64,000 nt of DNA from Burkholderiales bacterium (GTDB taxonomy: Bacteria; Pseudomonadota; Gammaproteobacteria; Burkholderiales; WYBJ01): contig JADLAC010000043.1 of NCBI GenBank assembly GCA_020848435.1, positions 670 to 64,669 of the forward strand, in the 5' to 3' direction. The position numbers and the translations under genes are program-made. The stretch's first letter is position 1. Each line of letters opens with the position of its first letter. This document shows, in pieces, positions 604-45,931 of the stretch. The notes below the pieces were generated by a model. That model saw nothing but the letters and a program-made list of their open reading frames with translations, did not search any database and was not told the origin of the DNA.

Positions 604-1212
604 TCAGATTCGCACCGGCTCGCCCCAGCGCCCCTCGAAGAAACGCTCGGCGAGCGGCTTGCGCGCGCGCGGCGCGAGCTCCTTCTTCCTGGTCTCTTCG
701 TCCAGCACATCGGGGCTCGCCTGGTGGCCCACGGCGATCATCGCCATCGGCATGCAATCGGCCGGGATACCGAATGTCGCGCGCGCTCGGTCGGCGTCGT
801 AGCCCGCCATCTGGTGCGCGATCAGCCCCAGCGCCACGGCCTGCAAAACCAGGCTCATACTGGCCATTCCGGTGTCATACTGCGAATAGCGGTTCGGGCG
901 CCCGCCACCGAGCGGGTCGGCGCTCGCGATCGACAACAGCAGCAGCGGCGCATGCTTGACCCAGCGCTTGTTGGATTCGGTCAGGCAGTCGAATGCGCGC
1001 TCGAATCCCGCCGCATCCTGGGTTCGATCCCACACCAGGAAACGCCACGGCTCGACCCCGTTGCACGAGGGCGCCCAGCGGGCCGCTTCCAGCAGCGAAG
1101 CGAGCTGCGCGCGCGTGACCGGCTTAGCCGCGTCGTAGGCACGCGGGCTCCAACGCCGCGTCATCAGCTCGTGGATCGGGACCGAAGCGGCTGCATTCTT
1201 TTCCAGGATCAT
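604..1212 (-). CDS. Nitroreductase-family protein (202 aa)
   Basis: This is the C-terminal part of tracked ORF 604..1596. The ATG at 1212 (MILEKNAAASVPIHELMTRRWSPRAYDAAKPV...) is preceded by AGGAA. It carries RWSPRAY and WAPSCNGVEPWRF nitroreductase-fold signatures. The 128 codons upstream in the tracked ORF are Arg-rich shadow sequence. Confidence 0.8.
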   Translation of the reverse strand: MILEKNAAASVPIHELMTRRWSPRAYDAAKPVTRAQLASLLEAARWAPSCNGVEPWRFLVWDRTQDAAGFERAFDCLTESNKRWVKHAPLLLLSIASADPLGGGRPNRYSQYDTGMASMSLVLQAVALGLIAHQMAGYDADRARATFGIPADCMPMAMIAVGHQASPDVLDEETRKKELAPRARKPLAERFFEGRWGEPVRI

Positions 1213-1411: not shown

Positions 1412-2347
1412 TCACCTGGGCTCCTCCAAGGCGTAACCCGCGTCGCGCCATGCATCGATTCCACCGAGCAAGGGCCGCACCCGCACGAATCCTCGATCCA
1501 GCAGCATACGGGCGACACGCGCCGCACTGACTTCGTTCGGTCAACTGCAATAGACCACGATTTCGCGCTCTCGCGGCACACTCGCGAGCGCGGCATCGGG
1601 GTAATCGGGATCGATCAGCACGGCATTGGGAAGCGTTCGGAGATCGGCGTCAAGCGCAGCCGCGCTGCGCACGTCCAGGATCAGGGGCTCGTCGCCGCGC
1701 TCGATCATCTCGTTGAGCTCCGGCACGGCGATGCGGGCGGCGCGCAACTGCGCGAGGAAGCGATAGCGCTCGAACCATTTGAACGTCATGTAGCCGGCGA
1801 GAAGGATGAGCAGCCCGCCCGCGGCGTAGGTGCCCATGCGCGCAAGCCGGTCGAGCAGCGCATCGATTTGCTGGGAGAGCAGCCAGCCCGCGAGCATCGA
1901 GCCACCGGCCCACAGCGCGGCGCCGATGCCGTTGAAGAGCGTGAAGGTACCGGTACCGAGCCGAATCGCACCGGCGAGCGGCGGCGCGACGGTCGCAAGC
2001 CCGGGAACGAACTTGGCGATGACGAGCGCGCCGGCGCCCCAACGCAGGAACACGCGCTCGGTCTGGCGCACGCACGATTCGGGCGAGAACGACATGCGGC
2101 ACAGCAGGGCGAGAACACGGTGTCCATAGCGCCGGCCGGCGCTATACCAGATCGCATCGGCGATCATGCTCGCGCCCAGGGCCGCGACGAAGGCCTGCAG
2201 GACCGACAGCTGGCCGCCGGCAGCAAGCGCGCCGGCCAGCATCATTGTCGGAATCGCAGGCAGCGGCACGCCGAGCTGGGTGAGCAGCACGTTTCCGAAC
2301 ACGAGCCCGACCCCGTAATGCGCGAGAACCGCCGAGAGCTCGTTCAT
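1412..2347 (-). CDS. DedA/SNARE-associated membrane domain fused to a C-terminal rhodanese domain, interrupted by an in-frame TGA at 1541-1543
   Basis: Tracked ORF 1541..2347 ends ...REREIVVYCS-TGA. The same frame then reads PNEVSAARVARMLLDRGFVRVRPLLGGIDAWRDAGYALEEPR and reaches its own TGA at 1412-1414. That stretch is the missing second half of a rhodanese domain. See findings. Confidence 0.7.
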
Positions 2348-2363: not shown

Positions 2364-4637
2364 TCAGCGAGTGCCGCCCGCGCCCGTGCTGGCGAGCGCG
2401 GTCATGTTGACGATGCGCCGCACCGTGGCCGAGGGCGTGACGATGTGCACCGACCTGGCGCAACCCAGTAGCAGTGGGCCGATGGTGATGCCCCCGCCGC
2501 CGGTGATCTTGAGCAGGTTGTAAGCGATGTTGGCCGCATCCAGGTTCGGCATCACCAGCAGGTTGGCCTCGCCCTTCAAGCGCGAATCGGGGTAGAGCTT
2601 CGAGCGGATGTCCTCGGACAGCGCCGCGTCGCCCTGCATTTCGCCATCGACCTCCAGCTCGGGCACGCGCGCTTCGAGCAGCTCGCGCGCACGCGCCATC
2701 TTGCGTGCCGATGCCGAACGCGAGCTGCCGAAGTTCGAGTGCGAGACCAGCGCGACTTTCGGCGTGTGGCCGAAACGACGCACCTCCGCCGCCGCCATCA
2801 CGGTCATTTCGGCGATCTGCTCGGCGCTCGGATCTTCGTTCACATACGTGTCGCAGATGAATAGCGTCCGCTCAGGCAACAGCAGCACGTTCATCGCCGC
2901 GAAGATATCGTGCCCTTGCGCGCGACCGATCAATCCCGCGATATGGTCTAGGTGCTCTTCATGTGTACCGAAGGTCCCGCACAACATGGCGTCGGCATCG
3001 CCGCGGCGAAGCAGCATGGCGCCGATCAAGGTGGTGTGCTGGCGCACCCGGGCCTTCGCCACATCGGGCGTGACGCCCTGGCGGCCCATGGCGCGGTGAT
3101 AGTCGCTCCAGACCTCGCGGTAGCGCGGATCGCTTTCCGGATTGACCGCTTCGAAGTCCTTGCCGGCCGCGAGGCGCAGGCCATAGCGCTTGATGCGGCT
3201 CGATATCACCTCGGGGCGGCCGATCAGGACCGGCCGGGCCAAGCCCTCGTCGACCACCTGCTGGACCGCCCGCAGAACGCGTTCGTCCTCGCCTTCGGCA
3301 TAGACCACGCGCTTGGGCGCCTGCTTCGCGGCCTCGAACACCGGGCGCATGATGAGGCCCGAGTGATAAACGAACTGCATCAGTTGCTGGCGGTACGCTT
3401 CCCAGTCCTTGATCGGGCGCGTCGCGACACCGCTGTCCATCGCGGCGCGCGCCACTGCGGGAGCGATCTGGATGATCAGGCGCGGATCGAACGGCCGCGG
3501 GATGATGTAGTCGGGTCCGAACTCGGTCTCAGCTTCGCCGTAAGCCATCGCGACCACGTCCGACTGCTCGGCCTCCGCCAGCGCTGCCAGCGCGCGCACG
3601 CATGCCATCTTCATTTCGTCGGTGATCTTGGTCGCGCCCACGTCGAGCGCGCCGCGGAAGATGAAGGGAAAGCACAGAACGTTGTTGACCTGGTTGGGAT
3701 AGTCGGAGCGCCCGGTGGCGATGATGCAGTCGGGGCGCGCGGCTTTCGCTTCCTCGGGCGTGATCTCGGGGTCCGGATTGGCGAGCGCGAGTATGATGGG
3801 CTTGGCCGCCATGCGCTTCACCATCTCGGCATTGAGCACCCCGCGCGTGGAGCAGCCGAGAAACACGTCGGCGCCGTCGATGACATCGGCAAGTGACCGT
3901 GCCGCGGTATCCTGCGCATAGCGCGCCTTGTTGGGCTCCATGTCTTTCTCGCGCCCGCGGTAGATGACGCCGCGGCTATCGCAGACGAACACCTTGCGCG
4001 CATCGAGACCGAGCTTGACGAAAATATCCAGGCAGGCGATGGAGGCGGCGCCCGCCCCCGACACCACGAGCTTCACCTCCCCGATCGGCTTGCCGACGAT
4101 CTTGAGCGCATTGATGAGCGCCGCCGAGGAGATGATCGCGGTGCCGTGCTGATCGTCGTGGAACACCGGGATGTTGAGCCGCTCGCGCAGCTTCTGCTCG
4201 ATGTAGAAGCACTCCGGCGCCTTGATGTCCTCGAGGTTGACGCCGCCCAGGGTGGGCTCCAGCGCGACCACGGCCGCCACGACCGCGTCCGGGTCCTTGG
4301 CCGCGAGCTCGATGTCGAACACGTCGATGCCGGCGAACTTCTTGAACAGGCAGCCCTTGCCTTCCATCACTGGCTTGGCCGCGAGCGGACCGATGTTGCC
4401 CAGACCGAGCACCGCCGTGCCGTTGGTGACCACGCCGACCAGGTTCGCGCGCGAGGTGAGGCTCGCCGCCTGGGTCGCATCGTCGGCGATCGCGAGGCAG
4501 GCGTAGGCAACGCCGGGCGAATACGCCAGCGCCAGGTCGCGCTGGTTGATGAGTCCCTTGGTCGGAGTGACGGAGATCTTGCCGGGCGTCGGGTAACGAT
4601 GGTACTCGAGCGCGTTGATGCGCAGTTGCTCGTCCAT
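2364..4637 (-). CDS. maeB: NADP-dependent malic enzyme (malic enzyme domain plus phosphotransacetylase-like domain)
   Basis: The 759-aa ORF has [23 protein letters not shown] at its N-terminus and a PTA-like C-terminal half, as in MaeB. I prefer the second ATG (4637) because AGGGGA sits 7 nt upstream of it. The tracked start is 4643. Confidence 0.95.
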
Positions 4638-4917
4638 GGACATTCCCCTATGGATGCCCGCGCGTGCTGTTGGAGGGGCCGCGTCGGGCGCCGTGTGAGT
4701 CGACGAGGCATTCTACCCGCCGCCGGGACGATTTACCCGTCCGGTGGTTGGCGTGCAATACGCGCCGCGGCGAATGGGTGCGTCGGCCGCAGGGGCCGAC
4801 ATAGCGCGTCATGAGCCGGACGCACGCGTGCTCGGCGCGATCGATCGAGGTCGCGCGAGCGTGACTCGGGAGAATTCCGGAATGCTTCGGCTGATTTCCG
4901 TCATCGATCGCACCCCG

Positions 4918-7269
4918 TCACCTTTTCCCGTGCTTCCCGCCAGCTGCGCCGGCAGCGCGCAGTGCCTGCCAGACGCGTGCCGCGCTCATCGGCATCTCCA
5001 GATGAAGCACGCCCGCCGGTCGCAACGCGTTCATCACCGCGTTGGCGGCGGCGGGCAACGCGCCGACGCACCCGCCCTCGCCCACCCCCTTCGCTCCGAG
5101 CGGATTGCGCGCGCTCGCAATGGGTCGTTCGTCGTGCGTGATGGTCTGGAGCCACCCCGCGCGTGGCAGGAAGTAGTCGAGCAGGCTGCCGCTTGCCAGT
5201 TGCCCGCTCTCGGGATCGAACGCCACGTGCTCGCCGAAGACCTGCCCGAGCCCCTGCACGAGCGCCCCGTGCACCTGGCCTTCGACGATGGCGCGATTGA
5301 GCACCGTGCCGCAATCGTCGACGACCGTGTAGCCGACGATGCGTGTGACGCCGGTATGGGGATCGATCTCGACTTCAGCGACGTGGCAGGTGTTGGGAAA
5401 GGTCGATCCCACCGACACCTCGGCGGTGAGCGCAAGCGGACTGGTGTCGCGGGCAGAAGCTTGGGCGGCGAGCTCGCCGAGATCGACCATTCGCCCCGAT
5501 TCGCGCTCGACGAAACAGCCGGCACGCGCATCGACCTGCGAAGGCTCGACCTGAAGGACGTCCGCCGCCAATGCCCGGGCACGCTCAAGCAGCTCTTTCG
5601 CGGCGGCGCGGCATGCGCTTCCCGCTCCGAGCGCCGAGCGTGATCCACCCGTGTGATTGCCGACCAGCGCGACATCGCTGACCGACTGGCGCACGCGCAC
5701 ACGATCGTGCGCGATGCCGAGCACATCGGCGGCGATCTGCGCGAACACCGTCTCGTGGCCCTGGCCGGAAGAATGCGTGACCGAAACAAGATCGATGCTC
5801 CCGTCGGGCAACGCTTCGATTCGCACCTGATCCTTGGGAAACACTCCGGCCCAGGTGACCTCGATCGCGGACGCGGTACCGATACCCCGCAGCATGCCGC
5901 TGGCGGCCGAGCGAGCGCGGCGCCGCTCGAACCCGGCGTGATCGGCAAGATCGAGGGCACGCTGCTGCACACCGGCGAAGTCGCAGCGCTCGTATTCGAC
6001 GCCGGATGGTGTGCGATAGGGAAACGCGTCGAGCGGAATGAAGTTGCGGCGGCGCAGCTCGGCCGGGTCGAGGGCGAGCTCGAACGCCGCCTGATCGACC
6101 AGGCGCTCGATCGCATACACACAGTCGGGCCGACCCGCTCCGCGATACGACGCCACCGGCACGGTGTTGGTAAACGCCTGACGCAAGCGTGCATGCACCG
6201 CCGGGATGCGGTAGACGCCGGTTGCACCGGCAACGGGATTGCGCAGGTGGCTCGCGGGACCGCCCGGTGTGGGATAGGCGCCGAGATCGATCGCATACTC
6301 GATTGAAAGCGCGAGAAAGCGACCACTCGCGTCCAGCGCAAGCGTGCCGTCGGCTGCGATCGCGCGCCCGTGGGTATCGGCAAGGAAGCCTTCGCTGCGC
6401 GTCGACACCCATTTCACCGGGCGTCCGGTGCGCCGCGCGGCGAGCATCAGCGCCGCGTACTCGGGATAGGACTGGCTGCGCTGCCCGAAGCTTCCGCCGA
6501 CGTCGCGTGCGACGATCCGGATGTTTTCCTCGGCCACACCGGTGAGCGTCGCCATCTGCAGCCGCATCATGTTGATGCCTTGCACCGGCAGATGGAGCGT
6601 ATAGCCGCCGCCGGCCGCGTCGTAGTGCGCAAGACAGGCGCGCGGCTCGAGCGGATTGGGCGCGACACGCGTGCTCTCGACGCTCAGGAGCGTGACATGG
6701 CTCGCGGCCGCGATCGCCGCCGCGACGGCCTGCGCATTGCCGAGCGCGTAATCGAACGCGAGATTACCCGGCGCCTGCGCATGGACCACTGGGGCGCCGG
6801 CTGCAAGCGCGCATCGCGCCCCCACCACAACCGGCAAGTCCTCGTAGCTCACGCTCAGGTGCTCCGCCGCATCGAGCGCAATCGCTTCGCTGTCGGCCAC
6901 GATCAGAGCGAGCGGCTCGCCGACGTAGCGGACACGGCCGTGCGCAAGCACCGGCCGCTCGGGTTGCACCAGCGCACGGCCATCGAGTCCGACGACGGAC
7001 ATCATCTGGTAGAAACGAACGTAACCCGCCGCGACGGCGTCGGAGCCGGTCAGAACGGCGTGCACCCCGGGCAAGGCCGCAGCGCGAGCGCTGTCGAGCG
7101 CAACCAGCCGCGCGTGCGCGCGGTCGGAACGAACGAATACGCCGGCGAGCATGCCGGGCAAGCGCCAGTCGGCGGCGTACCGGCCCGCACCCGTGACGAG
7201 GCGCGCGTCTTCCAGCCGATTCGCGCGCCGCGGGCGGTCGCGCGCGGATTCGGAATCGGCCAACATCAT
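4918..7269 (-). CDS. Molybdopterin-binding large subunit of the xanthine dehydrogenase / aldehyde oxidase / CoxL family (783 aa)
   Basis: The N-terminus RLEDARLVTGAGRYAADW is typical of the family, and the size and overall composition fit it. The start ATGATG overlaps the stop of the upstream Bug gene by 4 nt. Confidence 0.9.
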   Translation of the reverse strand: MMLADSESARDRPRRANRLEDARLVTGAGRYAADWRLPGMLAGVFVRSDRAHARLVALDSARAAALPGVHAVLTGSDAVAAGYVRFYQMMSVVGLDGRALVQPERPVLAHGRVRYVGEPLALIVADSEAIALDAAEHLSVSYEDLPVVVGARCALAAGAPVVHAQAPGNLAFDYALGNAQAVAAAIAAASHVTLLSVESTRVAPNPLEPRACLAHYDAAGGGYTLHLPVQGINMMRLQMATLTGVAEENIRIVARDVGGSFGQRSQSYPEYAALMLAARRTGRPVKWVSTRSEGFLADTHGRAIAADGTLALDASGRFLALSIEYAIDLGAYPTPGGPASHLRNPVAGATGVYRIPAVHARLRQAFTNTVPVASYRGAGRPDCVYAIERLVDQAAFELALDPAELRRRNFIPLDAFPYRTPSGVEYERCDFAGVQQRALDLADHAGFERRRARSAASGMLRGIGTASAIEVTWAGVFPKDQVRIEALPDGSIDLVSVTHSSGQGHETVFAQIAADVLGIAHDRVRVRQSVSDVALVGNHTGGSRSALGAGSACRAAAKELLERARALAADVLQVEPSQVDARAGCFVERESGRMVDLGELAAQASARDTSPLALTAEVSVGSTFPNTCHVAEVEIDPHTGVTRIVGYTVVDDCGTVLNRAIVEGQVHGALVQGLGQVFGEHVAFDPESGQLASGSLLDYFLPRAGWLQTITHDERPIASARNPLGAKGVGEGGCVGALPAAANAVMNALRPAGVLHLEMPMSAARVWQALRAAGAAGGKHGKR

Positions 7270-8276
7270 TCGACGCGGATATCGGCGGCGCGCGCGATGC
7301 GCTCGTTGCGCATGACCTCCGAGCGCAACAGAGCATTGAACGCATCGGGGTCGCGTGGCGACGGCCGGAATCCGAGTTTGCCAAGCGCCTCCTTGAGCGC
7401 GGGCGACTGCACGATCGCGAGAAACTCACCGGAGAGCCGTCCCATCGCCTCGCGCGGCACGCTCGCTTGGGTCACGGCACCGTACCAGATCGTCCAGTCG
7501 AATCCCGGAATTGCGGATTCCGCGACCGTCGGTACCTCCGGCAGCAGCTCGTTACGTTGCGTCGAGCCTACGGCGAGCGCGCGCAGACGTCCCGTGCGCA
7601 CGTGCGGCGCGACATCCGGTACGTTCGAGAACAGGACGCCGACATGCCCACCCATGACGGCAGTACCGGCTGGAGCGGTGCCGGCATAGTGCACCGCACG
7701 AACATCGATCTTCGCGGTCAGCTTGATCACCTCGGCCGCGAGGTGATGCCCGGCACCGAGGCTTGTGCTCGCATAGTTGAGCTCGCCCGGCCGGCGCCTG
7801 GCCAGATCGATCAGCTCGCGCAGGTTGCGCACCGGCACCGAGGGATGTACCGCGATCACGATCGGCGTATCGGCGATCCCGGCGACAGCGGTGAAATCTT
7901 TCAACGTGTCGTAGGGAAGCTTGGGCCGGATCGCGGGGTTGATCGTGAAGCTGTTGGCCACCAGCAAAACGGTGTGTCCGTCCGCTGGCGCCTTGGCGAC
8001 GTAGTCGGTGCCGATGACCGTGCCCCCGCCTGGCCGATTGTCGACGACCACGCTCTGGCCAAACGCGCGCGACAACGGAGTCGCGAGCGTGCGCGCGACG
8101 ATGTCGAGCGTGCCACCGGCCGGAAAAGCCACGACCAGCCGCACCGGGCGCGCCGGGAACTGCTGCGCGAACGCGCCGCCCGTCCCCACCAGCAGCAAAG
8201 GCACGACAACATACAACGGATGCGCGCGCCGCGCGCCCTCGCGGCGGCGGCCGGTATCAGGATGCTGCCGGTGCAT
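7266..8276 (-). CDS. Bug/TctC-family tripartite tricarboxylate transporter substrate-binding protein
   Basis: MHRQHPDTGRRREGARRAHPLYVVVPLLLVGTGGAFAQQFPARPVRLVVAFPAGGTLD... carries the family motifs. The ATG at 8276 is preceded by GGGAGGGAAG. The tracked ORF begins 14 codons earlier. Confidence 0.9.
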   Translation of the reverse strand: MHRQHPDTGRRREGARRAHPLYVVVPLLLVGTGGAFAQQFPARPVRLVVAFPAGGTLDIVARTLATPLSRAFGQSVVVDNRPGGGTVIGTDYVAKAPADGHTVLLVANSFTINPAIRPKLPYDTLKDFTAVAGIADTPIVIAVHPSVPVRNLRELIDLARRRPGELNYASTSLGAGHHLAAEVIKLTAKIDVRAVHYAGTAPAGTAVMGGHVGVLFSNVPDVAPHVRTGRLRALAVGSTQRNELLPEVPTVAESAIPGFDWTIWYGAVTQASVPREAMGRLSGEFLAIVQSPALKEALGKLGFRPSPRDPDAFNALLRSEVMRNERIARAADIRVE

Positions 8277-8400
8277 GAAACTTCCCTCCCCTGTTATACG
8301 TGTGCGGCGTGATCGCATTCTGCGCCGGGCAGCCTGTCCGCCGCAAGGCAGTCGATTTACCCGTCCGAGTGCTTTGCGTACAATATGCGTCCTGCCAAAT

Positions 8401-8476
8401 GGGTCCCTAGCTCAATTGGTAGAGCAGCGGACTCTTAATCCGTTGGTTCGGGGTTCGAGTCCCCGGGGGCCTACCA
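8401..8476 (+). tRNA. tRNA-Lys (anticodon CTT), 76 nt with encoded CCA
   Basis: I folded the cloverleaf by hand. The acceptor pairs GGGTCCC with GGGGCCT (two G-U pairs). The D arm is GCTC/GAGC. The anticodon stem GCGGA/TCCGT closes the loop CT-CTT-AA. The T arm is CGGGG-TTCGAGT-CCCCG, followed by discriminator A and CCA. Confidence 0.9.
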
Positions 8477-11282: not shown

Positions 11283-11708
11283 TTAGCGTCAAGTGAGCTA
11301 TCTGCGACCGATCGAGCGCACCGCCATCGCCGGCTCATCGAAGTATCGCTCATCGTTCGCAGCCACCAAGCGATCAATGTTCAGGCGCGCAGCGCTCCAC
11401 CCACGAATTCGGAGAAGACCGGCCGCTGCAGGACGGAGCTGTGCGAGTGTTGCCGCTCGTCGCTTTTCTGCGCGGATTGACCAGCGGGCGCGTTCTCAAC
11501 CCGGTGCCCTAGGGTCTTGCGGCGCCGCCGACCGGATGCTCGGACTCCCGTTCGAAGCTGGATCATCCTCGCAGCGAATGTCATAACCGGCAGCGCCGAG
11601 GCGTTCCGTTTTTCGGTACACTCACTGGCACGATCGTGGAAGCGCGCCGAGAGCATCGAGTTTTTGCCCCGCCTCGACGCGCTCTTCGCTGCGCCGAAGG
11701 AGGAGAGC

Positions 11709-12677
11709 ATGAATCCCGTAGCGCTCGTTTCGTTCGGCTGCGTTTCAGCGCTCGGCATGACAACTGCGCTAGCGCAGTCGAGCTATCCGGAAAGGACCGT
11801 GCGGATCATCGTCGGCTATCCCGCCGGCACTCAAATCGACACCATTGCGCGCCTGCTCGGTCCGCCGCTCGCGGATTCGTTCGCCAAGCAGGTGATCGTC
11901 GACAACGTCGCCGGTGCGAGCGGCAACATCGGCGCGGAGCGCTTGGCCAAGACGGTGCCCGACGGCTACACGGTCGGCCTGGTGAACACCGCACAAACGA
12001 CGATCAATCCCAGCCTGTACAAGGTGTCCTACGACGCGACGAAGGACTTCGCGCCGATATCGCTGGTCGCGTCGGCGCCTTTCCTTATCGTGGTGCACAG
12101 CGGGCTGCCGGTGAAGGGCCTTGCCGATCTGGTCAAGCTCGCCCAGGCACGCCCGGGCGAGGTGACCTATGCATCCGCGGGAAGCGGCACAGGCATACAC
12201 ATGACGGCTGAATACTTCAAGTCGGTCGCGAGAATCGACCTGATGCACGTTCCCTACCGTGCCGTGGCGGTCGCGATGCCCGATCTGCTAAGCGGACGCG
12301 TGATGATGACCTTCAGTCCCATCGCTACATCGGTGCCGCTGGTGCGCGAGGGAAAGCTGCGTGCTCTGGCCGTGACCTCGACCCGCCGCAATGCAGCTAC
12401 GCCCGAAACGCCCACGGTTTCCGAGTCCGGCTATCCGGGATTCGAGGCGGCGAACTGGTTCGGACTGGTGGGGCCCGACAAGACGCCGCCCGCGGTCGTA
12501 AGCCGGCTGCACACGACAACGACCAAGGCGCTAGGGTTGCCGGATGTCCGCGCGAAGCTGACGAGTCTCGGCGTCGATGTCATCGGCGGCTCGCCGGACG
12601 ACTTGTCGGCGCTGATAAAGAACGAGGTCCCGCGCTGGGCTAAGCTCATCCGCGAGCGCGGCATCAAGGCGCAGTGA
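11709..12677 (+). CDS. Bug/TctC-family substrate-binding protein (322 aa)
   Basis: The ATG at 11709 follows AAGGAGGAGAG. MNPVALVSFGCVSALGMTTALAQSSYPERTVRIIVGYPAGTQID... The tracked ORF starts 64 codons earlier in non-coding-like sequence. Confidence 0.9.
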   Translation: MNPVALVSFGCVSALGMTTALAQSSYPERTVRIIVGYPAGTQIDTIARLLGPPLADSFAKQVIVDNVAGASGNIGAERLAKTVPDGYTVGLVNTAQTTINPSLYKVSYDATKDFAPISLVASAPFLIVVHSGLPVKGLADLVKLAQARPGEVTYASAGSGTGIHMTAEYFKSVARIDLMHVPYRAVAVAMPDLLSGRVMMTFSPIATSVPLVREGKLRALAVTSTRRNAATPETPTVSESGYPGFEAANWFGLVGPDKTPPAVVSRLHTTTTKALGLPDVRAKLTSLGVDVIGGSPDDLSALIKNEVPRWAKLIRERGIKAQ

Positions 12678-19196: not shown

Positions 19197-20165
19197 TCAC
19201 TGCTGCTCCACCTTCGCCATCTTGACGATCCGGCCCCAGATCTCGAAGTTCCTGCGCATCAATGCGCCCAGCTCCTCGGCGGAGGTCGGCGTCACGTCGT
19301 AGCCCTGCTTGTTCAGCGCGGCCGCGGTCTCCTTGTCGGCCAGGGCCGCATGGAGCGTTCGATTGAGCTTCGCGATCACCGCCGCGGGCGTATTGAGCGG
19401 CGCGAGCACCGCGTGGTAGATCCCGGGCAGGTCGAAGCCTTTCATCCCCGCCTCTTCCATGGTAGGCACCTCGGGCAGGTAGTGATGACGCGCGGTGTCG
19501 GCCACGCCGATGATGCGCAGCTTGCCCGCGCGCGCGTGCGGCAACACGTGTCCCATGCCCGCGAACATGAAGCCGATGCGCCCGCCGAGAAGGTCCGTCA
19601 ACGCCGGACCGCTGCCCTTGTACGGCACATGGATCAGGCGCACCCCGGAGACATGCTGGAGCAGCTCTCCCGCCAGGTGATTGGAAATCCCGACACCGGC
19701 CGAGCCGTAGCTCGCCTTGGTCGGATCGGCGTTGGCCAACGCGAGCAGCTCGGACACCGACTTCACCGGCAGGCCGGCGCTGACCACGAGCACGTTGACG
19801 GTGCTTACGGTCTTGGCGATCGGGGCATACCCCAGTGGATCGTACGACAGCGACTTGTAGATGTGCGGGTTGAGCGCATGGGTGGAGTCCGTGGTCCAGA
19901 ACAGCGTGTAGCCGTCGGGCGCCGCCTTCTGCACGTACTGCGCGCCGATGCCGCTGCCGGCGCCGGGCTTGTTGTCGATGATGACCTGTTGGCTGAGCAA
20001 CGCCGCCAGCTTGTGCGCGACGGTGCGCGCGGCGGTATCGGTCGCGCCGGCGGGATAGGCGACGACGATGCGGATCAGCTTGGCCGGATACTCCTGCGCG
20101 CGGGCGTGCGGCGCGGCCAGCAGCGCCGACAGCACCAAGCCCATTACCCATGTCCTAGCTTGCAT
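19197..20165 (-). CDS. Bug/TctC-family substrate-binding protein (322 aa)
   Basis: The ATG at 20165 follows AAGGAG. MQARTWVMGLVLSALLAAPHARAQEYPAKLIRIVVAYPAGATD... Confidence 0.9.
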   Translation of the reverse strand: MQARTWVMGLVLSALLAAPHARAQEYPAKLIRIVVAYPAGATDTAARTVAHKLAALLSQQVIIDNKPGAGSGIGAQYVQKAAPDGYTLFWTTDSTHALNPHIYKSLSYDPLGYAPIAKTVSTVNVLVVSAGLPVKSVSELLALANADPTKASYGSAGVGISNHLAGELLQHVSGVRLIHVPYKGSGPALTDLLGGRIGFMFAGMGHVLPHARAGKLRIIGVADTARHHYLPEVPTMEEAGMKGFDLPGIYHAVLAPLNTPAAVIAKLNRTLHAALADKETAAALNKQGYDVTPTSAEELGALMRRNFEIWGRIVKMAKVEQQ

Positions 20166-20283
20166 TCCCAGCTCCTTCACGAGATCGATTCGTTTCCAAG
20201 CCCAAGTTGAGATCACTGCGTTTGCGCACGCAGCTTCGGGGGACCACCTCGGCGCCACGCGCAACCGATGCTCAACGCGAGCT

Positions 20284-22827
20284 CTATGCCGGCCCCGCCT
20301 GGGGCGCCTTGCCGCGAGGCAATGGCGGCAACGCCCGCGTCCCGATGACGCCGCGCGCGGCGAGAGCTTCGAGCTCCGAGGCGGACAACCCGAGCAGGCG
20401 CCCCAGCACCTCGGTGTTGTGCTCGCCCAGCGTGGGGGCGGGGCTGCGTACGGCAAAGGGCACGCCCTGCTCGCGAAACGGCGCCGAAGCCTGCGGCTGC
20501 TCGCCTACGTGCTCGCGGCGCACGCTCTGCCAGAAGCCGCGCACGGCGAGATGCGCATCGGAGAGCAGTTCCCCCGGCGACAGCACCGCGCCGGCGGCGA
20601 CCCCGGCGCGCTGCAGCTCGAGCATCGCGTCGGCCTTGGTGCGTCGGCTCGTCCAAGCTTCCACGCGCGCATCGATCTCGTCGTGCCGGGCGCGCCGCCC
20701 ATCGGCATGGGCAAGCTCCGGGTCGCGCGCGAACGCATCGAGGCGCATCACCGCGCACAGTGCGCGCCACATCGCATCATCGGTAACCGCCACCAGCACC
20801 CACTCGTCGGCGCCCTCGCAGCGATAGATGCCCTGCGGCGCGTGCATCGGGTGGCGATTGCCCGCGCGCGGCCCGATGCCGCCGTTGGCCGACTGCTCGA
20901 TCACCCAGGGTGCGGCGAGCGAGAGCATGCACTCGACCTGGGACAGATCGATGAACTGGCCGGCGCCGGTGCGTTTGCGATGCAGGAGCGCGGTCAACAG
21001 GGCCGCGCACGCATTGAGGCCGCTGACGGCATCGCCGTAGGCGACATGGTTCTGCACCGGCGGGTCCTGCGCCCGCCCCGACACGCTCGGCAGCCCCGAG
21101 CCATGCTCGAGCGTCGAACCGTAGGCGCGCAAATCGCTCCAGGCGTTGTTCGCGCCGAAGGCGTTCATCGACACCATCACCAGCGAAGGATTCACCGCGA
21201 CCAGCCGCGCATAGTCGAGGCCGAGCTTCGGCAGCACGCCCGCCGAGTTGTTCTCGATCATCCCATCGGCGAGCGCGACCAGCCGCTTGAGCAGATCGAC
21301 GCCCTCGGGCGCGGTGAGATCGAGCGTGATGCCGCGCTTGTTGCGATTGAGCAGGTTGAAGCGCGAGCTCTTCTCGTAGAGCATCTGTTCATACACCGCC
21401 GCGTGGCGCTCCTGCCCGCGCCACCAGTCGGGGTAGCGCACCGCTTCCACCTTGATGATGTCGGCGCCGAGGTCCCCCAGCATGCGGGTCGCGATGGGTC
21501 CCGCCCAGCCCATCGACAGGTCGATGATGCGCGTACCGGCGAGCGGCAGCGCCGGCGGCGCCACGTCGATCCTGACCGGCGCGAACGGCGAGCGCTCGCG
21601 CGACGCGGCCGCCAGCGCATCGTGCTCAGCGGGCCGCGGCACCACCCCGCCCGCCGAGGGCGGTGTGCGCGTCAGGCGTAGCGGGCAACCCGGCGCGCGC
21701 ACCGTGCGGCTACCCGCGCGCAGCTCGACGAAGCTCCCGCGCTGTGCCCACACCGGCTGCGCCAACAGCTCCGCCATATCGGGGACGATCGCGATCGGCA
21801 GTTTCAATCGCAGCGCATCCTGCAGCCATTCGTGCGCGCTGCGCTGCTCGAAGCGCGCAGCGAGCAGCGACCCCAGCTCGGCCGCGCGCTTGGCCCGCGC
21901 GACCGCGTTGGCGTAATCGGGATGATCCCCGAGCTGCGGCATTTCCAGCAGGGCGCACAAGGCTCGCCACTGGGCGGGCGAATTGCAGGTGACACCGATC
22001 CGGCCTGCCTTGCAGGCAAAGATGCCGAGCGTGCCGCCCGAGGTGAAGAGATTGACCCCAGCGCGACGTTCCTCGTAGCCGGGCACCAGACGGGAGATAT
22101 CCAGCTCCGACAAGGCCGCCGCGGCCTCGTGCACGCTCACCTCGAAATAGCGGCCGCGAGCGCCGTCCACGCGCGCCATCAATGCGGCGACCAGCGCGAT
22201 GAAGGCCGACAAGCCGCCGATGATCCCCGCCTGGTAGTCGGGCAGGGTGAGCGGCGGCCCCTCGACCGGACCCACTAGCTTCACGAGCCCCGCGAGCGCG
22301 CGGCAGACCGCGTCCGTACCCCGGAAGTCCCGATACGGGCCGCTCGCGCCGAACCAGCTTACATCGGCGATCACCAGGTGCGGATGCGCGCGCGCCAGCT
22401 CGGCATGGTCGATCCCCGCCGCCGGCCGGGCGCTGCCGATCGTGCCGTCGACCAGCACGTCGGCGCCGGCCACCAACGCGGCGAGCCCATCCTCGGTCGC
22501 GGCGATGCTGCGCTTGTTGGCATTCAAGAAGGCGAAGAACGCGCTCTCGCGCCGGTCCGCGCCGATGTCGAAGACGGGGAGCGCGCGTCGCGCCGGGTCG
22601 CCTTGCGGGGCTTCCACCTTGATCACGTCCGCACCGAAATCGGCCAGCAGGCGGGCACAGTATGCCGCCGCGGGTAAGGTGCCGAGCTCGATCACCCGCA
22701 CGCCGGCGAACGGCGCCGGCTCACGGCCAGCGGTCGGCTTCGCCATGTCGCGTCGCCGCCCATGCTCGCGCCCTGCGCTGGAAGGCCTCGGCTCACGGCC
22801 AGCGGCCGGCTTCGCCGGCGAGTGCAT
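20284..22827 (-). CDS. Tandem-fused family III (CaiB/BaiF) CoA-transferase with two complete domains in one ~847-aa polypeptide
   Basis: Domain 1 is FAGVRVIELGTLPAAAYCARLLADFGADVIKVEAPQGDPAR. Domain 2 is LAGTRIIDLSMGWAGPIATRMLGDLGADIIKVEAVRYPDWWRG. I prefer the ATG at 22827, directly after GAGGAGAAGGGAG. Alternatives are 22746 and 22845. Confidence 0.85.
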   Translation of the reverse strand: MHSPAKPAAGREPRPSSAGREHGRRRDMAKPTAGREPAPFAGVRVIELGTLPAAAYCARLLADFGADVIKVEAPQGDPARRALPVFDIGADRRESAFFAFLNANKRSIAATEDGLAALVAGADVLVDGTIGSARPAAGIDHAELARAHPHLVIADVSWFGASGPYRDFRGTDAVCRALAGLVKLVGPVEGPPLTLPDYQAGIIGGLSAFIALVAALMARVDGARGRYFEVSVHEAAAALSELDISRLVPGYEERRAGVNLFTSGGTLGIFACKAGRIGVTCNSPAQWRALCALLEMPQLGDHPDYANAVARAKRAAELGSLLAARFEQRSAHEWLQDALRLKLPIAIVPDMAELLAQPVWAQRGSFVELRAGSRTVRAPGCPLRLTRTPPSAGGVVPRPAEHDALAAASRERSPFAPVRIDVAPPALPLAGTRIIDLSMGWAGPIATRMLGDLGADIIKVEAVRYPDWWRGQERHAAVYEQMLYEKSSRFNLLNRNKRGITLDLTAPEGVDLLKRLVALADGMIENNSAGVLPKLGLDYARLVAVNPSLVMVSMNAFGANNAWSDLRAYGSTLEHGSGLPSVSGRAQDPPVQNHVAYGDAVSGLNACAALLTALLHRKRTGAGQFIDLSQVECMLSLAAPWVIEQSANGGIGPRAGNRHPMHAPQGIYRCEGADEWVLVAVTDDAMWRALCAVMRLDAFARDPELAHADGRRARHDEIDARVEAWTSRRTKADAMLELQRAGVAAGAVLSPGELLSDAHLAVRGFWQSVRREHVGEQPQASAPFREQGVPFAVRSPAPTLGEHNTEVLGRLLGLSASELEALAARGVIGTRALPPLPRGKAPQAGPA
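22717..22816. repeat. 28-nt direct repeat (27/28 identical) spaced exactly 72 bp (24 codons) apart in the 5' end of the CoA-transferase gene
   Basis: 22717-22744 is cggctcacggccagcggTcggcttcgcc and 22789-22816 is cggctcacggccagcggCcggcttcgcc. They encode the duplicated peptide AKP(A/T)AGREP. Confidence 0.85.
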
Positions 22828-23042
22828 CTCCCTTCTCCTCGACACGCGCAGCCTGCGACCACATGGTGGCGCTTGCGCCGCTCGCGCTCTACTCCCGGCG
22901 CGCTCGACGCAATCTCATCCTTCAGCGAAACGACGCCATGGCGGTCGCACGCCGTGACCACAATGCGAAATCGCGATCGCGCTTCGCCTGTGAATACTGG
23001 ACGATGTGCGGGGATTGTGCAACCATCGCCGCTGAGGGAGCC

Positions 23043-26000: not shown

Positions 26001-26327
26001 GCGAGCGGCATGACCGGCGGCTCGCGCATGGACCCGATGTTCTCGGTCTCCTGGCCCACCGGCGAGTTCGGCCCGATGAACCTCGAAGGCGCGGTGCAGC
26101 TCGCCTATCGCAAGGAGCTCGCGGCGCAACCCGACGACACCGCCAGGAAGGCGCTGTACGACAAGTTGCTCGGCAACCTGTACGCGCTGGGCAAGGCGAC
26201 CGAGCACGCCACGCACCTGCGCATCGATGCGGTCATCGACCCGGCCGACACCCGCCGCTGGATCATCGCCGGCCTGGACGCCGCCAAGCGCAAGCACCCC
26301 AGCCGCCGCTGGGTGGACGCATGGTAG
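23043..26327 (+). CDS. Single-chain biotin-dependent acyl-CoA carboxylase: biotin carboxylase, BCCP and carboxyltransferase fused (1094 aa)
   Basis: The ATG at 23043 follows GAGGGAG. The BC domain is ILIANRGEIAIRIERAA...MVIKALGGGGGRGLRVV. The BCCP carries the biotinylation motif VLEAMKMEH. The C-terminal ~520 aa are a PccB/AccD-like carboxyltransferase. The tracked ORF starts 127 codons early. Confidence 0.9.
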   Translation: MKKTGTQAIVAAVPNCSRILIANRGEIAIRIERAAADLGLAAVAVYASDDAASLHALRARESVALQGSGARAYLDIDAIIAAARASGCDAVHPGYGFLSENAAFAQACQAAGLTFIGPPPQVLDVFGDKSRARDLALSQSVAVLPGTHGPASLGTIQRFFAELPADCGMVIKALGGGGGRGLRVVRAAHEIEPAFAACTREALAAFGDGGVYAERLIANARHVEVQIAGDGTRVIALGDRDCSLQRRHQKIVEIAPAPELPAALREALHAAAVRLAAAVSYRSLGTMEFLVDASRGEYAFIECNARLQVEHTVTEEVTDIDLVQLQIALAQGRTLASLGLDATPPCRGYAVQARVNLETLAADGTVRSECGRLSVYEPPSGRGVRVDGYGYAGYDTSPNYDSLLAKVIARGASFAEAAARCERALADFRIDGVPTSIALLRALLADPAVLAARASTRYIEEHGAALIDAASKLAPPRLAAGAAPAAQPSFETLAGATAVIAPLQATLIALEAAEGDLVSAGQTVAVLEAMKMEHVIGAPVSGRIARMAAAVGAIVRRDQPIAFILPAEVEIADSDEEREIDLDHIRPDLAEVLERWRMTRDEARPQAVAKRRARNQRTARENIDDLLDPGSFIEYGAFAIASQRSRHSVEHLLKMSPADGLITGVGTVNAALFGAAQARIAALAYDYTVLAGTQGGINHYKTDRILGIALEHKLPIVWYTEGGGGRPGDDRSGPGHRTFGAIGEVSGEVPMIAIASGYCFAGNASVAGMSDILIATKGSNLGMAGPAMIEGGGMGIVKAADIGPLHEQVANGVVDIVANDEADATRLAKEALSYFQGRTTGWACADQRLLRNAIPENRLRAFDVRALIRTLADTGSMLELRPEFGRPIITALIRIEGRPVGLIANDNHHLGGAIDCDGADKGTRFMLLCDNYGIPVLSLVDTPGFMVGLESERKAAVRKTSRMFLAGAKLGVPFLAVVLRKCYGLGASGMTGGSRMDPMFSVSWPTGEFGPMNLEGAVQLAYRKELAAQPDDTARKALYDKLLGNLYALGKATEHATHLRIDAVIDPADTRRWIIAGLDAAKRKHPSRRWVDAW

Positions 26328-28879: not shown

Positions 28880-28943
28880 CGATCACCTCCATGGATGCGG
28901 CACAAGCGAAGCGTACAGCGAACGACCTGCGGTGCAAATCGCA

Positions 28944-35147: not shown

Positions 35148-35219
35148 CTTCAAAGTTGGGGTCACGAAGTTCACACAAGTCCACAATGCAATCCGCGAGA
35201 CCTGACCCCAAGTCCACCG

Positions 35220-36347: not shown

Positions 36348-36377
36348 GGCGTTACCTCCGCACGAACGGCTCGTGCC

Positions 36378-38093: not shown

Positions 38094-38142
38094 GCTGGCT
38101 AGCGAATGGTGTCCGCCGCGCTGAGTTTGGCCTCGCCGCGAG

Positions 38143-38778: not shown

Positions 38779-38787
38779 GTTTGCTCC

Positions 38788-39597: not shown

Positions 39598-39628
39598 GCT
39601 CCTCCTCCTATGCTTGGACTGTGTACGA

Positions 39629-39949
39629 TCAGGAGGGCGGCGCGACCGTTGCCTCGTCGGAACGCTTGTCGCCCTTGTTGTCGGTCCAGGTCACCATGAT
39701 TTTGTCGCCGGCCTTCGCGCCCTTGATGCGCAGCCCGAGAAACGGATCGCGCGACACCGCCTGACTCCATTGCGCGTCGAATACCGTCTTGCCGTTGTGG
39801 CTCACCACCACGTTCTGAATGAAATGCAACGGAATGACCTGCCCCTTCGCGTCCTTGCGTTGCCCGGTTTCCATCGGATGGCGCATGAGGATGCGCACAT
39901 CGGCCACGTCGCCCTGCAGCGTGGCTCTGATTCTCATCGGCTCAGCCAT
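39629..39949 (-). CDS. soxZ: Sulfur carrier complex subunit SoxZ
   Basis: MAEPMRIRATLQGDVADVRILMRHPMETGQRKD...HFIQNVVVSHNGKTVFDAQWSQAVSRDPFL is typical SoxZ. Confidence 0.9.
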   Translation of the reverse strand: MAEPMRIRATLQGDVADVRILMRHPMETGQRKDAKGQVIPLHFIQNVVVSHNGKTVFDAQWSQAVSRDPFLGLRIKGAKAGDKIMVTWTDNKGDKRSDEATVAPPS

Positions 39950-39985
39950 TACGGCATTCTCCCTGGTCGCGTCGCAGCGAGCGTA

Positions 39986-40450: not shown

Positions 40451-40530
40451 GAACCCTCCTCGCTAAACGGTTGCGTCCGGCGTGCATTCGCGCCTGCTGC
40501 CGGCAATCGCACCGGCGCGCCTCGCCGCGC

Positions 40531-44640: not shown

Positions 44641-44664
44641 TCGATAACGACGAGGAGAAGCGCC

Positions 44665-45924: not shown

Positions 45925-45931
45925 GCTCGCC

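What the first reader, a model, noticed from the sequence alone, without database searches (positions are those of the whole stretch)
1412..2347. In-frame TGA splits a DedA-rhodanese fusion at a loop Cys position: selenocysteine recoding or a very recent lesion
The frame reads ...REIVVYCS-TGA-PNEVSAARVARMLLDRGFVRVRPLLGGIDAWRDAGYALEEPR-TGA. The 42 codons after the internal TGA form an undamaged rhodanese C-terminal half with normal GC3-rich codon usage. As I recall, homologous rhodanese domains read Y-C-x-C-P-N-E here. The TGA therefore sits where a Cys codon (TGC/TGT, one substitution away) is expected, two residues after the catalytic Cys. A C-x-U motif in a sulfurtransferase loop would be chemically plausible. 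A modest hairpin (GUGCGGCG-CGUGU-CGCC(C)GUAU) starts about 14 nt downstream, but it is weak as a SECIS candidate. A nonsense mutation or a base-call error are the simpler explanations.
Basis: partly seen in the sequence, partly recalled or inferred. Interest (0 to 1): 0.55.

Follow-up and report, generated by a model that had tools for sequence, protein, structure and literature searches.

The report
Selenocysteine codon in membrane rhodanese gene
The apparent stop codon inside this gene is almost certainly a conserved selenocysteine codon, which reveals a membrane-anchored rhodanese selenoprotein that gene callers in two bacterial phyla routinely cut short.

Summary
A minus-strand gene (2347->1412) encodes a DedA/VTT membrane domain fused to a rhodanese domain. 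It is interrupted at codon 269 by TGA (1543-1541), two residues after the catalytic Cys267.

The TGA is not a lesion:
- Seven independent run assemblies carry the identical gene.
- 162 protein clusters from Burkholderiales and Acidobacteriota (Thermoanaerobaculia) end at exactly this codon (Y-C-S/T).
- All 18 distinct DNA sequences examined continue in frame for 40-62 codons under purifying selection.
- 147 of 148 homologues without the TGA carry TGC/TGT (Cys) here.

An 18-nt hairpin lies 15 nt after the UGA (window 1525-1508, loop CGUGU).
- It is fully paired in 18/18 TGA forms, with compensatory G-C<->C-G changes at synonymous sites.
- It is fully paired in only 1/139 Cys forms.

This is the standard signature of a bacterial selenoprotein gene with its SECIS element.

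The closest curated family is the stand-alone CxU rhodanese selenoprotein (NF041203), but the score is below its cutoff. The DedA fusion is absent from NCBIfam 2026 and from a 2026 selenoproteome review. It is therefore a new variant of a known kind.

The sel genes could not be tested, because they are absent from the 64-kb window. Biochemical function remains inferred.

The parts
1412..2347 (-). Complete selenoprotein gene: 311 codons plus stop (DedA/VTT membrane domain, a transmembrane anchor and a rhodanese domain). Gene callers stop it at codon 268.
   Evidence: Translation; Pfam; homologues of 308-336 aa with the same architecture
1883..2251 (-). DedA/VTT domain (residues 33-155). It contains a Cys pair, C83 (2101-2099) and C92 (2074-2072), that is invariant in this fusion family.
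   Evidence: PF09335 38.9 bits, cutoff 33.9; invariant columns C83 and C92
1772..1828 (-). Predicted last transmembrane helix (residues about 174-192, YAAGGLLILLAGYMTFKWF). It is followed by a basic stretch, which suggests a cytoplasmic rhodanese domain.
   Evidence: Long helix 173-203 in the AF2 model of homologue P0039. The sequence is read directly. The topology is inferred from the positive-inside rule.
1442..1723 (-). Rhodanese domain (residues 209-302). The UGA splits it.
   Evidence: PF00581 40.7 bits, cutoff 22.2; NF041203 69.9 bits; PDB and Foldseek matches to single-domain rhodaneses
1547..1549 (-). TGC codon of Cys267, the rhodanese catalytic cysteine.
   Evidence: Aligns with the active-site Cys of 6mxv and 3o3w; invariant in all homologues
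1541..1543 (-). UGA codon 269, read as selenocysteine (motif C267-S-U269).
   Evidence: TGA in 18 distinct orthologous sequences; TGC/TGT in 147 other homologues
1503..1532 (-). SECIS element. Lower stem: 1532-1530 pairs with 1505-1503. Upper hairpin 1525-1508: 5' arm 1525-1520, loop CGUGU 1519-1515, 3' arm 1514-1508 with one bulged C (1510). The upper hairpin starts 15 nt after the UGA.
   Evidence: RNAalifold consensus; pair counts 99.4% paired, two pairs with compensatory changes, 0/500 shuffles reach the covariation score; 18/18 Sec forms against 1/139 Cys forms fully paired
1412..1414 (-). True stop codon (TGA) of the gene.
   Evidence: orthologues end within a few codons of this point or 20 codons later
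2364..4643 (-). Upstream neighbour, NADP-malic enzyme (maeB type, 759 aa). Its stop lies 16 nt before the start of the selenoprotein gene. The synteny is conserved in the Burkholderiales clade.
   Evidence: ORF list; Pfam malic/Malic_M/PTA_PTB in orthologous loci
604..1212 (-). Downstream neighbour, nitroreductase-family gene (202 aa). The synteny is conserved in the Burkholderiales clade.
   Evidence: PF00881 71.6 bits; the same neighbour in L161-L167 and L172

Best explanation
UGA269 is a selenocysteine codon. During translation, the 18-nt hairpin 15 nt downstream (loop CGUGU, one bulged C) acts as a bacterial SECIS. It recruits SelB-GTP-Sec-tRNASec to the ribosome, so the ribosome inserts Sec and continues for 42 more codons.

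The product is a 311-residue inner-membrane protein. It has an N-terminal DedA/VTT domain, a transmembrane anchor, and a probably cytoplasmic single-domain rhodanese. The rhodanese active-site loop reads C267-S-U269-P-N-E.

Shown here:
- the conserved UGA
- the Cys/Sec pairing with homologues
- purifying selection on the downstream frame
- a SECIS-type hairpin, specific to the UGA forms, with compensatory changes

Inferred:
- that SelB/tRNASec is the decoder
- that the catalytic Cys267 carries a persulfide (or perselenide) and that Sec269 attacks it as a resolving or relay nucleophile, forming a Cys-Sec selenenylsulfide that a thiol reductant recycles. This would make the protein a more reactive version of the CxC unit that is invariant in the Cys homologues.

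The role of the DedA domain is not established. It could deliver a membrane-associated or transported substrate, or the rhodanese domain could gate it by redox state.
For: - The TGA lies at the same codon in 18 distinct DNA sequences whose proteins are 45-96% identical. Each is followed by an open frame of 40-62 codons that encodes the conserved second half of the rhodanese domain.
- 43 + 119 = 162 protein clusters end at Y-C-S/T.
- Homologues without TGA carry TGC/TGT at this codon: 79 genome loci and 68 metagenome loci.
- In codons +14 to +39, pairwise differences are 0.217/0.189/0.536 at codon positions 1/2/3. That is a coding pattern, and it is more constrained than the 40 codons upstream.
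- RNAalifold predicts the hairpin independently. All six upper pairs are kept in 18/18 sequences. G-C<->C-G double changes occur at two pairs (6 and 2 sequences), plus G-U wobbles. Sliding the partners by 1-3 columns drops pairing from 99% to 26-60%.
- The hairpin is fully paired in 18/18 Sec forms but in 1/139 Cys forms. The loop is CGTGT in 17/18 Sec forms and 3/139 Cys forms. Third-position entropy falls to 0.3-0.9 bit in codons +6 to +13, and only in Sec forms.
- In a neighbour-joining tree the Sec forms make one clade of 19 leaves. The single Cys member has a decayed hairpin.
- The gene is identical, TGA included, in 7 independent run assemblies.
- Cys267 aligns with the rhodanese catalytic Cys. 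The model of a Cys homologue places C-x-C in the strand-loop-helix active-site cradle.
- The best NCBIfam hit is NF041203, 'rhodanese-related (seleno)protein', whose motif is LYCAU, that is CxU. A CxU rhodanese selenoprotein is listed in the reviews PMC9312934 and PMC13188914.
- The Sec-decoding trait is common in Betaproteobacteria (PMC1794560). It is demonstrable in Burkholderia cenocepacia: a TGA-containing fdnG homologue followed downstream by selA-selB-tRNA-SeC.
Against: - No selA, selB, selD or tRNA-Sec was found in the 64-kb window or in any fetched locus, up to 10 kb either side. The machinery is therefore not shown for any genome that carries this gene.
- The window's own hairpin is not thermodynamically exceptional (z = 0.39).
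- The geometry differs from the E. coli and Burkholderia fdh SECIS: a 15-nt rather than 11-nt spacer, and the bulge on the 3' rather than the 5' side in the covariation-supported register.
- Rfam has no matching family.
- There is no direct evidence of selenium in the protein.
Confidence: 0.88

Rival explanations
1. Recent nonsense mutation, pseudogene or base-call error: a TGC/TGT Cys codon hit by a single substitution in this genome only.
For: TGA is one substitution from TGC/TGT. Cys is the ancestral residue in most homologues.
Against: - The same TGA occurs in 18 distinct sequences and 162 protein clusters from two phyla.
- The downstream frame is intact and under purifying selection.
- The gene is identical in 7 independent assemblies.
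Confidence: 0.01
2. Genuine termination. The functional product is the 268-residue DedA protein with half a rhodanese domain. The downstream 42 codons are conserved for another reason, such as a separately translated peptide, re-initiation, or an RNA element with a non-SECIS role.
For: Gene callers and PGAP annotate it this way, as 'VTT domain-containing protein'. Some termination at UGA is expected even in true selenoprotein genes. Recoding efficiency in E. coli is reported as 30-40% (PMC4513850 abstract).
Against: - A rhodanese domain cut inside its active-site loop cannot fold.
- The downstream residues are the conserved helix-strand-helix of the same domain, in the same frame.
- No start codon or ribosome-binding site is conserved. 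The only AUG, at codon +12, is absent in L145 and L168.
- The codon-position pattern shows translation in frame 0.
Confidence: 0.04
3. The UGA is recoded, but not to selenocysteine. Possibilities are Cys inserted by a tRNASec-mimicking tRNACys (selC*-type), or hairpin-stimulated near-cognate read-through (Trp/Cys).
For: selC* tRNACys opal suppressors that mimic tRNASec have been described in some bacteria (PMC5389517). Neither the machinery nor the inserted residue was observed here.
Against: - selC* genes were reported in anaerobic Firmicutes, Thermodesulfobacteria, Nitrospirae and Proteobacteria (named as delta-proteobacteria in the abstract); Burkholderiales were not mentioned in that paper (0 occurrences).
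- If Cys were inserted, a plain Cys codon would do, as it does in the 147 homologues.
- Maintaining UGA plus a hairpin over deep divergence implies a benefit specific to Sec.
- The element has the position and the small G-containing apical loop typical of bacterial SECIS (PMC1088965).
Confidence: 0.06

Closest known systems
[quoted passage not shown]
   Same: Single-domain rhodanese with Sec two residues after the catalytic Cys (CxU). It is the best NCBIfam hit for the rhodanese domain (E = 1.5e-19). Predicted selenoprotein with Cys homologues.
   Different: - The model describes a stand-alone protein of about 126 residues.
- This protein scores 69.9 bits against a cutoff of 115.
- It is fused to a DedA membrane domain.
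- Its motif is YC[S/T]UPNE rather than LYCAU.
- It occurs in Burkholderiales and Thermoanaerobaculia.
Cys-type 'DedA family protein/thiosulfate sulfurtransferase GlpE' fusions (for example Thermithiobacillus tepidarius, P0045)
   Same: Same architecture and length (308-336 aa), 50-57% identity. Invariant C83, C92, Y266 and C267, with PNE after the second Cys. These are clearly homologues; the Sec forms nest within them.
   Different: They carry TGC/TGT instead of TGA at codon 269 and lack the conserved hairpin. None is functionally characterised, as far as the searched literature shows.
Bacterial SECIS of formate dehydrogenase genes (E. coli fdhF and fdnG; Burkholderia cenocepacia fdnG homologue)
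   Same: A small hairpin of 17-18 nt inside the coding region, just after the UGA. It has one bulged nucleotide and a G-U in a small apical loop.
   Different: - The spacer is 15 nt, not 11 nt, so the loop GU lies 3 nt (one codon) further from the UGA.
- The bulge is on the 3' side in the register that covariation supports.
- The loop is CGUGU rather than GGUC or AGGUCU.
TsoB, rhodanese/DsbD fusion-like selenoprotein (NF045694, 'form 5' in PMC13188914)
   Same: A rhodanese-domain selenoprotein that the review names as a fusion to a DsbD-like domain.
   Different: Different partner domain (DsbD-like, not DedA), a different motif (UxxxxU, two Sec) and no detectable match here.
DedA of Cupriavidus (Ralstonia) metallidurans CH34, linked to selenite uptake and resistance (Ledgham et al. 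2005, cited in PMC8659212 ref 62 and PMC11422209)
   Same: A DedA-family membrane protein from a Burkholderiales bacterium with a reported connection to selenium handling.
   Different: It is not known to be a selenoprotein or a rhodanese fusion. Orthology was not tested here. The link is a lead only.

Membership tests
Bacterial selenoprotein gene (UGA-Sec recoding) | In-frame UGA followed by conserved coding sequence in the same frame | tested here: met
   18 distinct sequences; open frames of 40-62 codons; codon-position differences 0.217/0.189/0.536
Bacterial selenoprotein gene (UGA-Sec recoding) | Homologues with Cys aligned to the UGA (Cys/Sec pair) | tested here: met
   147 loci with TGC/TGT at the aligned codon
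Bacterial selenoprotein gene (UGA-Sec recoding) | Stem-loop immediately 3' of the UGA with a small apical loop containing G (bacterial SECIS) | tested here: met
   Hairpin at 1525-1508 with loop CGUGU. It shows compensatory changes and is present in 18/18 Sec forms against 1/139 Cys forms. Feature definition from PMC1088965.
Bacterial selenoprotein gene (UGA-Sec recoding) | selA, selB, selC (tRNA-Sec) and selD in the same genome | not testable with these tools
   None in the 64-kb window or within 10 kb of the gene in other loci. The rest of these genomes could not be read. The method detects selA, selB and tRNA-SeC in a B. cenocepacia control.
Bacterial selenoprotein gene (UGA-Sec recoding) | Selenium in the protein (75Se labelling or mass spectrometry) | not testable with these tools
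   Requires an experiment
NF041203 rhodanese_LYCAU (CxU rhodanese selenoprotein) | HMM score at or above the curated cutoff (115 bits) | tested here: not met
   69.9 bits, E = 1.5e-19, residues 202-309 on profile positions 19-125 of 126
NF041203 rhodanese_LYCAU (CxU rhodanese selenoprotein) | Sec two residues after the catalytic Cys (CxU) | tested here: met
   C267-S-U269; Cys267 aligned to the catalytic Cys of solved rhodaneses
NF041203 rhodanese_LYCAU (CxU rhodanese selenoprotein) | Stand-alone single-domain protein of about 126 residues | tested here: not met
   311 residues with an N-terminal DedA/VTT domain
Rhodanese domain (PF00581) | Pfam gathering score, and catalytic Cys at the strand-loop-helix active site | tested here: met
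   40.7 bits against 22.2; alignment to 6mxv and 3o3w; fold match to Alr3790, BH2092, GlpE and YgaP with TM up to 0.87 on the target
DedA / VTT domain (PF09335) | Pfam gathering score | tested here: met
   38.9 bits against 33.9, residues 33-155
E. coli-type fdhF SECIS | Minimal 17-nt hairpin 11 nt after the UGA, bulged U on the 5' side, GU in the loop (feature list from my own knowledge of the fdhF literature; sequence checked) | tested here: not met
   The spacer is 15 nt. The bulge is a C on the 3' side in the conserved register. Only the loop GU and the overall size agree.

The most novel reading that the evidence does not exclude
This is an uncatalogued selenoprotein family: a DedA membrane domain fused to a C-x-U rhodanese. 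It is widespread in freshwater and soil Burkholderiales and in Thermoanaerobaculia, and it is systematically mis-annotated as a truncated 'VTT domain-containing protein'. In the strongest reading, the fusion couples membrane transport or flipping by DedA (a family already linked to selenite uptake in Cupriavidus) to a Sec-based sulfur/selenium relay. That relay might also involve the invariant C83/C92 pair. The protein would then be a dedicated chalcogen-trafficking or redox-gated envelope device, not merely a more reactive sulfurtransferase.
Probability: 0.2. Interest if true: 0.75.

Novelty: new variant of a known kind. Interest (0 to 1): 0.55.

Why it matters
- **Annotation.** At least 162 protein clusters in public databases are cut at this UGA and lose half of their catalytic domain. 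A dedicated model would let annotation pipelines call the gene correctly.
- **Selenoproteome.** A 2006 survey found formate dehydrogenase to be the only selenoprotein family in Betaproteobacteria (PMC1794560). This adds a second kind of selenoprotein for that class, and a membrane-anchored one.
- **SECIS diversity.** The gene offers a compact, well-conserved SECIS variant (15-nt spacer, CGUGU loop, 3' bulge) with natural compensatory mutations. That is useful for defining what betaproteobacterial and acidobacterial SelB proteins accept.
- **Function.** It gives a handle on the uncharacterised DedA-rhodanese fusions. The invariant CxC/CxU unit marks them as redox or persulfide-relay proteins, and the Sec forms mark where high reactivity is selected.

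Tried and rejected
- **Rfam scan of 1380-1620 at E <= 10.** The only hit was a chance match to Moco-II, with no SECIS family. Rfam does not model this element.
- **Single-sequence folding of the window hairpin.** Not better than shuffles (z = 0.39). Thermodynamics alone says nothing in a 67% GC genome, so only the comparative evidence counts.
- **Alternative hairpin register.** RNAfold favours a 5' bulged C with a UGU triloop for the Burkholderiales sequence. I rejected it as the family consensus, because it breaks in the Acidobacteriota sequences while the RNAalifold register is kept with compensatory changes. It remains possible in Burkholderiales.
- **tblastn with E. coli SelA, SelB and SelD, plus ARAGORN, on the window and all loci.** Nothing found. 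This is uninformative, because only small parts of each genome were available.
- **Scan of the window for other in-frame TGAs flanked by coding-like sequence.** The 11 hits are all ordinary gene junctions in the same frame. There is no second selenoprotein candidate.
- **Gene-neighbourhood clustering over 164 loci.** No partner gene is conserved across the family. Synteny is specific to each clade: maeB/nitroreductase in Burkholderiales and the kds cluster in Thermoanaerobaculia.
- **The two collection scans.** They were biased towards Cys forms by their peptide patterns. I recovered Sec-form DNA mainly through exact-protein look-ups.
Full report
**1. What is in the sequence**

The gene lies on the minus strand. 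Its ATG is at 2347, an in-frame TGA is at 1543-1541 (codon 269), and 42 further sense codons lead to a second TGA at 1414-1412.

With Cys placed at 269, the 311-residue product matches Pfam VTT_dom (DedA; residues 33-155, 38.9 bits) and Rhodanese (residues 209-302, 40.7 bits). Both are above their cutoffs.

The base composition by codon position is 0.71/0.49/0.84 (GC1/GC2/GC3) upstream of the TGA and 0.76/0.52/0.71 in the 42 codons after it. The frame signature continues, although GC3 is somewhat lower.

The upstream neighbour is a malic enzyme gene (2364-4643). The downstream neighbour is a nitroreductase-family gene (604-1212).

**2. The TGA is conserved, not a lesion**

A search of 5.8 billion proteins returned 43 clusters, 62-100% identical to the query, that all end at ...Y-C-S, the residue before the TGA. 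Full-length homologues (308-336 aa, no more than 57% identical) read Y-C-[S/T]-C-P-N-E.

A second search used a more distant TGA-form protein. In it, 119 of the best 120 clusters end at ...Y-C-T. Those that carry a name come from Thermoanaerobaculia and other Acidobacteriota, where they are called 'VTT domain-containing protein'.

At the DNA level I collected 18 distinct sequences with TGA at this codon:
- the window
- nine loci from Burkholiderales-type MAGs and metagenomes
- eight more distant ones

Their proteins are 45-96% identical to one another. In every one, the frame stays open for 40-62 codons and encodes PNEASAARVARM...RVRPL.GG[IL][DE]AW..AG, the second half of the rhodanese domain.

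At the same codon, 147 other homologues have TGC or TGT.

Pairwise differences in codons +14 to +39 are 0.217, 0.189 and 0.536 per site at codon positions 1, 2 and 3. This is the signature of a translated region under purifying selection. It is stronger than in the 40 codons before the TGA, where the values are 0.317/0.291/0.556.

The window's 936-nt gene is reproduced without a single mismatch, TGA included, in assemblies of seven different sequencing runs.

A recent nonsense mutation or a base-call error is therefore excluded.

**3. A SECIS-type hairpin specific to the TGA forms**

The region after the TGA is far more conserved at the DNA level than its amino-acid conservation requires (alignment A2).

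RNAalifold, run without guidance, predicts two helices:
- an upper hairpin of six pairs, columns 28-33 with 39-45, with one bulged C and loop CGUGU
- a three-pair lower stem, columns 21-23 with 48-50

In window coordinates:
- The upper hairpin is 1525-1508: 5' arm 1525-1520, loop 1519-1515, 3' arm 1514-1508.
- The lower stem pairs 1532-1530 with 1505-1503.
- The upper hairpin begins 15 nt after the UGA.

Pairing statistics:
- All six upper pairs are standard pairs in 18/18 sequences.
- Pair 33-39 is G-C in 12 sequences and C-G in 6.
- Pair 30-42 is G-C in 15, C-G in 2 and G-U in 1.
- The window itself has a G-U at pair 28-45.
- All of these changes fall on synonymous third positions.
- Overall, 99.4% of cells are paired, and no shuffle out of 500 reaches the observed covariation score.
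- Sliding the partners by 1-3 columns reduces pairing to 26-60%.

The decisive control is the Cys forms. At the homologous positions, only 1 of 139 distinct Cys-form sequences can form all six pairs, and most form two to four. The loop is CGTGT in 17/18 Sec forms but in 3/139 Cys forms. Third-position entropy falls to 0.3-0.9 bit across codons +6 to +13 only in the Sec forms, against 1.3-1.8 bit in the Cys forms.

The RNA constraint also explains why the peptide SAARVARM is invariant in Sec forms but variable in Cys forms.

Two further Thermoanaerobaculia loci keep the hairpin, with the bulge shifted by one position.

**4. Caveats on the hairpin**

Folded alone, the window sequence is not more stable than shuffled sequence (z = 0.39).

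Rfam has no matching family.

Compared with them, the element is of similar size (18 nt against 17 nt) and has a single bulge and a GU in a small loop. It differs in two ways. Its spacer is 15 nt rather than 11 nt, which puts the loop GU one codon further from the UGA. Its bulge is on the 3' side.

For the Burkholderiales sequence alone, an alternative register is energetically preferred. It has a 5' bulged C and a UGU triloop, closer to fdhF. That register is not conserved in the Acidobacteriota sequences.

**5. Evolution**

In a neighbour-joining tree of 165 homologues, the 18 Sec forms fall in one clade of 19 leaves. The single Cys member (L109) has a partly decayed hairpin.

A Cys form also occurs among the Thermoanaerobaculia relatives (P0150).

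The picture is one old Cys-to-Sec change, maintained since, with occasional reversion. This is the pattern described for other selenoprotein families (PMC1794560).

**6. What could not be shown**

The window contains only tRNA-Lys(CTT) and no selA, selB or selD. None was found within 10 kb of the gene in any other locus.

The method works when the genes are present. In B. cenocepacia, tblastn and ARAGORN found selA, selB and tRNA-SeC directly downstream of the TGA-containing fdnG homologue.

The literature reports the Sec-decoding trait as common in Betaproteobacteria and reports selenoproteins in Acidobacteria (PMC1794560).

Decoding by SelB/tRNASec is therefore inferred from the gene's signature, not demonstrated.

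**7. How the protein probably works**

Cys267 aligns with the catalytic cysteine of solved rhodaneses.

An AlphaFold model of a 56%-identical Cys homologue has pLDDT 81.5 and pTM 0.72. It shows the canonical beta-strand (262-266), active-site loop (C267-x-C269-P-N) and helix (272-284). Its best structural matches are single-domain rhodaneses: Alr3790, BH2092, GlpE and YgaP.

Sec269 therefore sits inside the active-site cradle, two residues from the catalytic Cys. Both cysteines of the CxC unit are invariant in the Cys forms.

The most economical mechanism is a persulfide (or perselenide) carried on Cys267 that is resolved or relayed by residue 269, giving a Cys-Sec selenenylsulfide that is then reduced. 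Sec would make this step faster. This is inference.

The DedA domain carries a further invariant pair, C83 and C92, which could extend a thiol relay. I could not measure their position relative to the active site.

The basic stretch after the last hydrophobic helix suggests that the rhodanese domain is cytoplasmic. This rests on the positive-inside rule and is also inference.

Gene context gives no family-wide partner. In Burkholderiales the gene follows maeB and precedes a nitroreductase gene. In Thermoanaerobaculia it sits between kdsD and kdsA in a KDO/envelope cluster, which fits the envelope-lipid roles proposed for DedA proteins.

A DedA protein of Cupriavidus metallidurans has been linked to selenite uptake (Ledgham et al. 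2005, as cited in PMC8659212 and PMC11422209). This is a lead and was not tested here.

**8. Comparison with what is known**

Rhodanese selenoproteins are known. The 2026 review lists five forms, including 'form 3', defined by NF041203 with a CxU motif, and a rhodanese/DsbD-like fusion, TsoB.

NF041203 is the best NCBIfam hit here, but the score of 69.9 bits is well below the cutoff of 115. That model describes a stand-alone protein of 126 residues.

No NCBIfam model (release of June 2026) covers the DedA fusion. The words DedA, VTT and SNARE occur in neither review. No paper in the library combines selenoprotein, rhodanese and DedA.

Public annotation truncates the gene. It calls the product 'VTT domain-containing protein' or 'membrane protein DedA', and sometimes predicts a spurious 29-51-residue ORF after the TGA.

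I therefore class the gene as a new variant of a known kind:
- The recoding mechanism and the CxU rhodanese chemistry are known.
- The membrane fusion, the lineages and this SECIS variant appear not to be catalogued.

I cannot exclude that a large-scale screen outside the searchable library has listed it.

**9. Verdict**

Selenocysteine recoding is strongly supported (0.88). The lesion or error reading is refuted.

Interest is moderate (0.55). The result is a clean, widespread and mis-annotated selenoprotein with a testable SECIS, but it remains within a well-understood class of phenomenon.

Noticed in passing
window 35220-40462 (minus strand): Sulfur-oxidation (sox) gene cluster. It includes a YeeE/YedE-type sulphur-transport protein (35220-36377), a SoxB-like 5'-nucleotidase-domain protein (36378-38171) and a SoxA/TsdA cytochrome c (38788-39690), plus small ORFs that may be SoxX/Y/Z. 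The organism is probably a thiosulfate-oxidising member of the Burkholderiales. The TGA at 36380-36378, between soxB and yeeE, is an ordinary stop.
   Followed up: partly
window 4644-8476: In related loci (L001, L161, L163, L165, L166), tRNA-Lys(CTT) lies roughly 140-290 bp upstream of maeB. In the window it is 3.7 kb away (8401-8476). The gap holds a 783-aa molybdopterin hydroxylase gene of the CoxL/xanthine dehydrogenase type (4918-7269). GC content is lower (0.62-0.63) at 8-12 kb. This looks like an insertion next to the tRNA gene.
   Followed up: partly
window 11481-12677, 19197-20504, 27890-28882, 34149-35219: Four TctC/Bug-family periplasmic receptor genes lie within 25 kb, a pattern I know from Burkholderiales genomes. 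They are interleaved with genes for a CoA-transferase family III protein (20284-22914), a 1234-codon ORF that combines biotin carboxylase, BCCP and carboxyltransferase domains (22623-26327), an FAD oxidoreductase and an MmgE/PrpD protein.
   Followed up: no
L004:3805-3864 (uncultured Bordetella MAG) and L109: L004 is a Cys form (TGT) that still has all six hairpin pairs and the SAARVAR peptide, with loop CGCGU. It may be a recent Sec-to-Cys reversion. L109 is the only Cys form inside the Sec clade, and its hairpin is reduced to 4/6 pairs.
   Followed up: partly
L180:8464-14225, L181:8433-14622, L154: In Thermoanaerobaculia the TGA-form gene is embedded in a conserved tatA-tatC-kdsC-kdsD-[gene]-kdsA-pyrG-kdsB arrangement (KDO/LPS precursor genes). 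This hints at an envelope-related role for the DedA part.
   Followed up: partly
L165:10841-10936, L167:2534-2626, L168:1223-1312, L180:10841-10984, L181:10841-10996: Gene callers predict orphan ORFs of 29-51 residues just after the TGA. These are the C-terminal half of the rhodanese domain, an annotation artefact of the missed Sec codon.
   Followed up: yes
L171:11966-13677 (E. coli K-12) compared with window 604-1212: In E. coli, selD is directly adjacent to ydjA, which is annotated as a putative oxidoreductase and which I recall to be a nitroreductase-family gene. In the Burkholderiales clade, the selenoprotein gene is followed by a nitroreductase-family gene. This may be coincidence; orthology was not tested.
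   Followed up: no
window 42392-47008: Two radical-SAM genes (42392-43576 and 44641-45924) lie next to a lipoate-protein ligase A/B-type gene (45701-47008) and a luciferase-like monooxygenase gene (40453-41661). Function was not examined.
   Followed up: no
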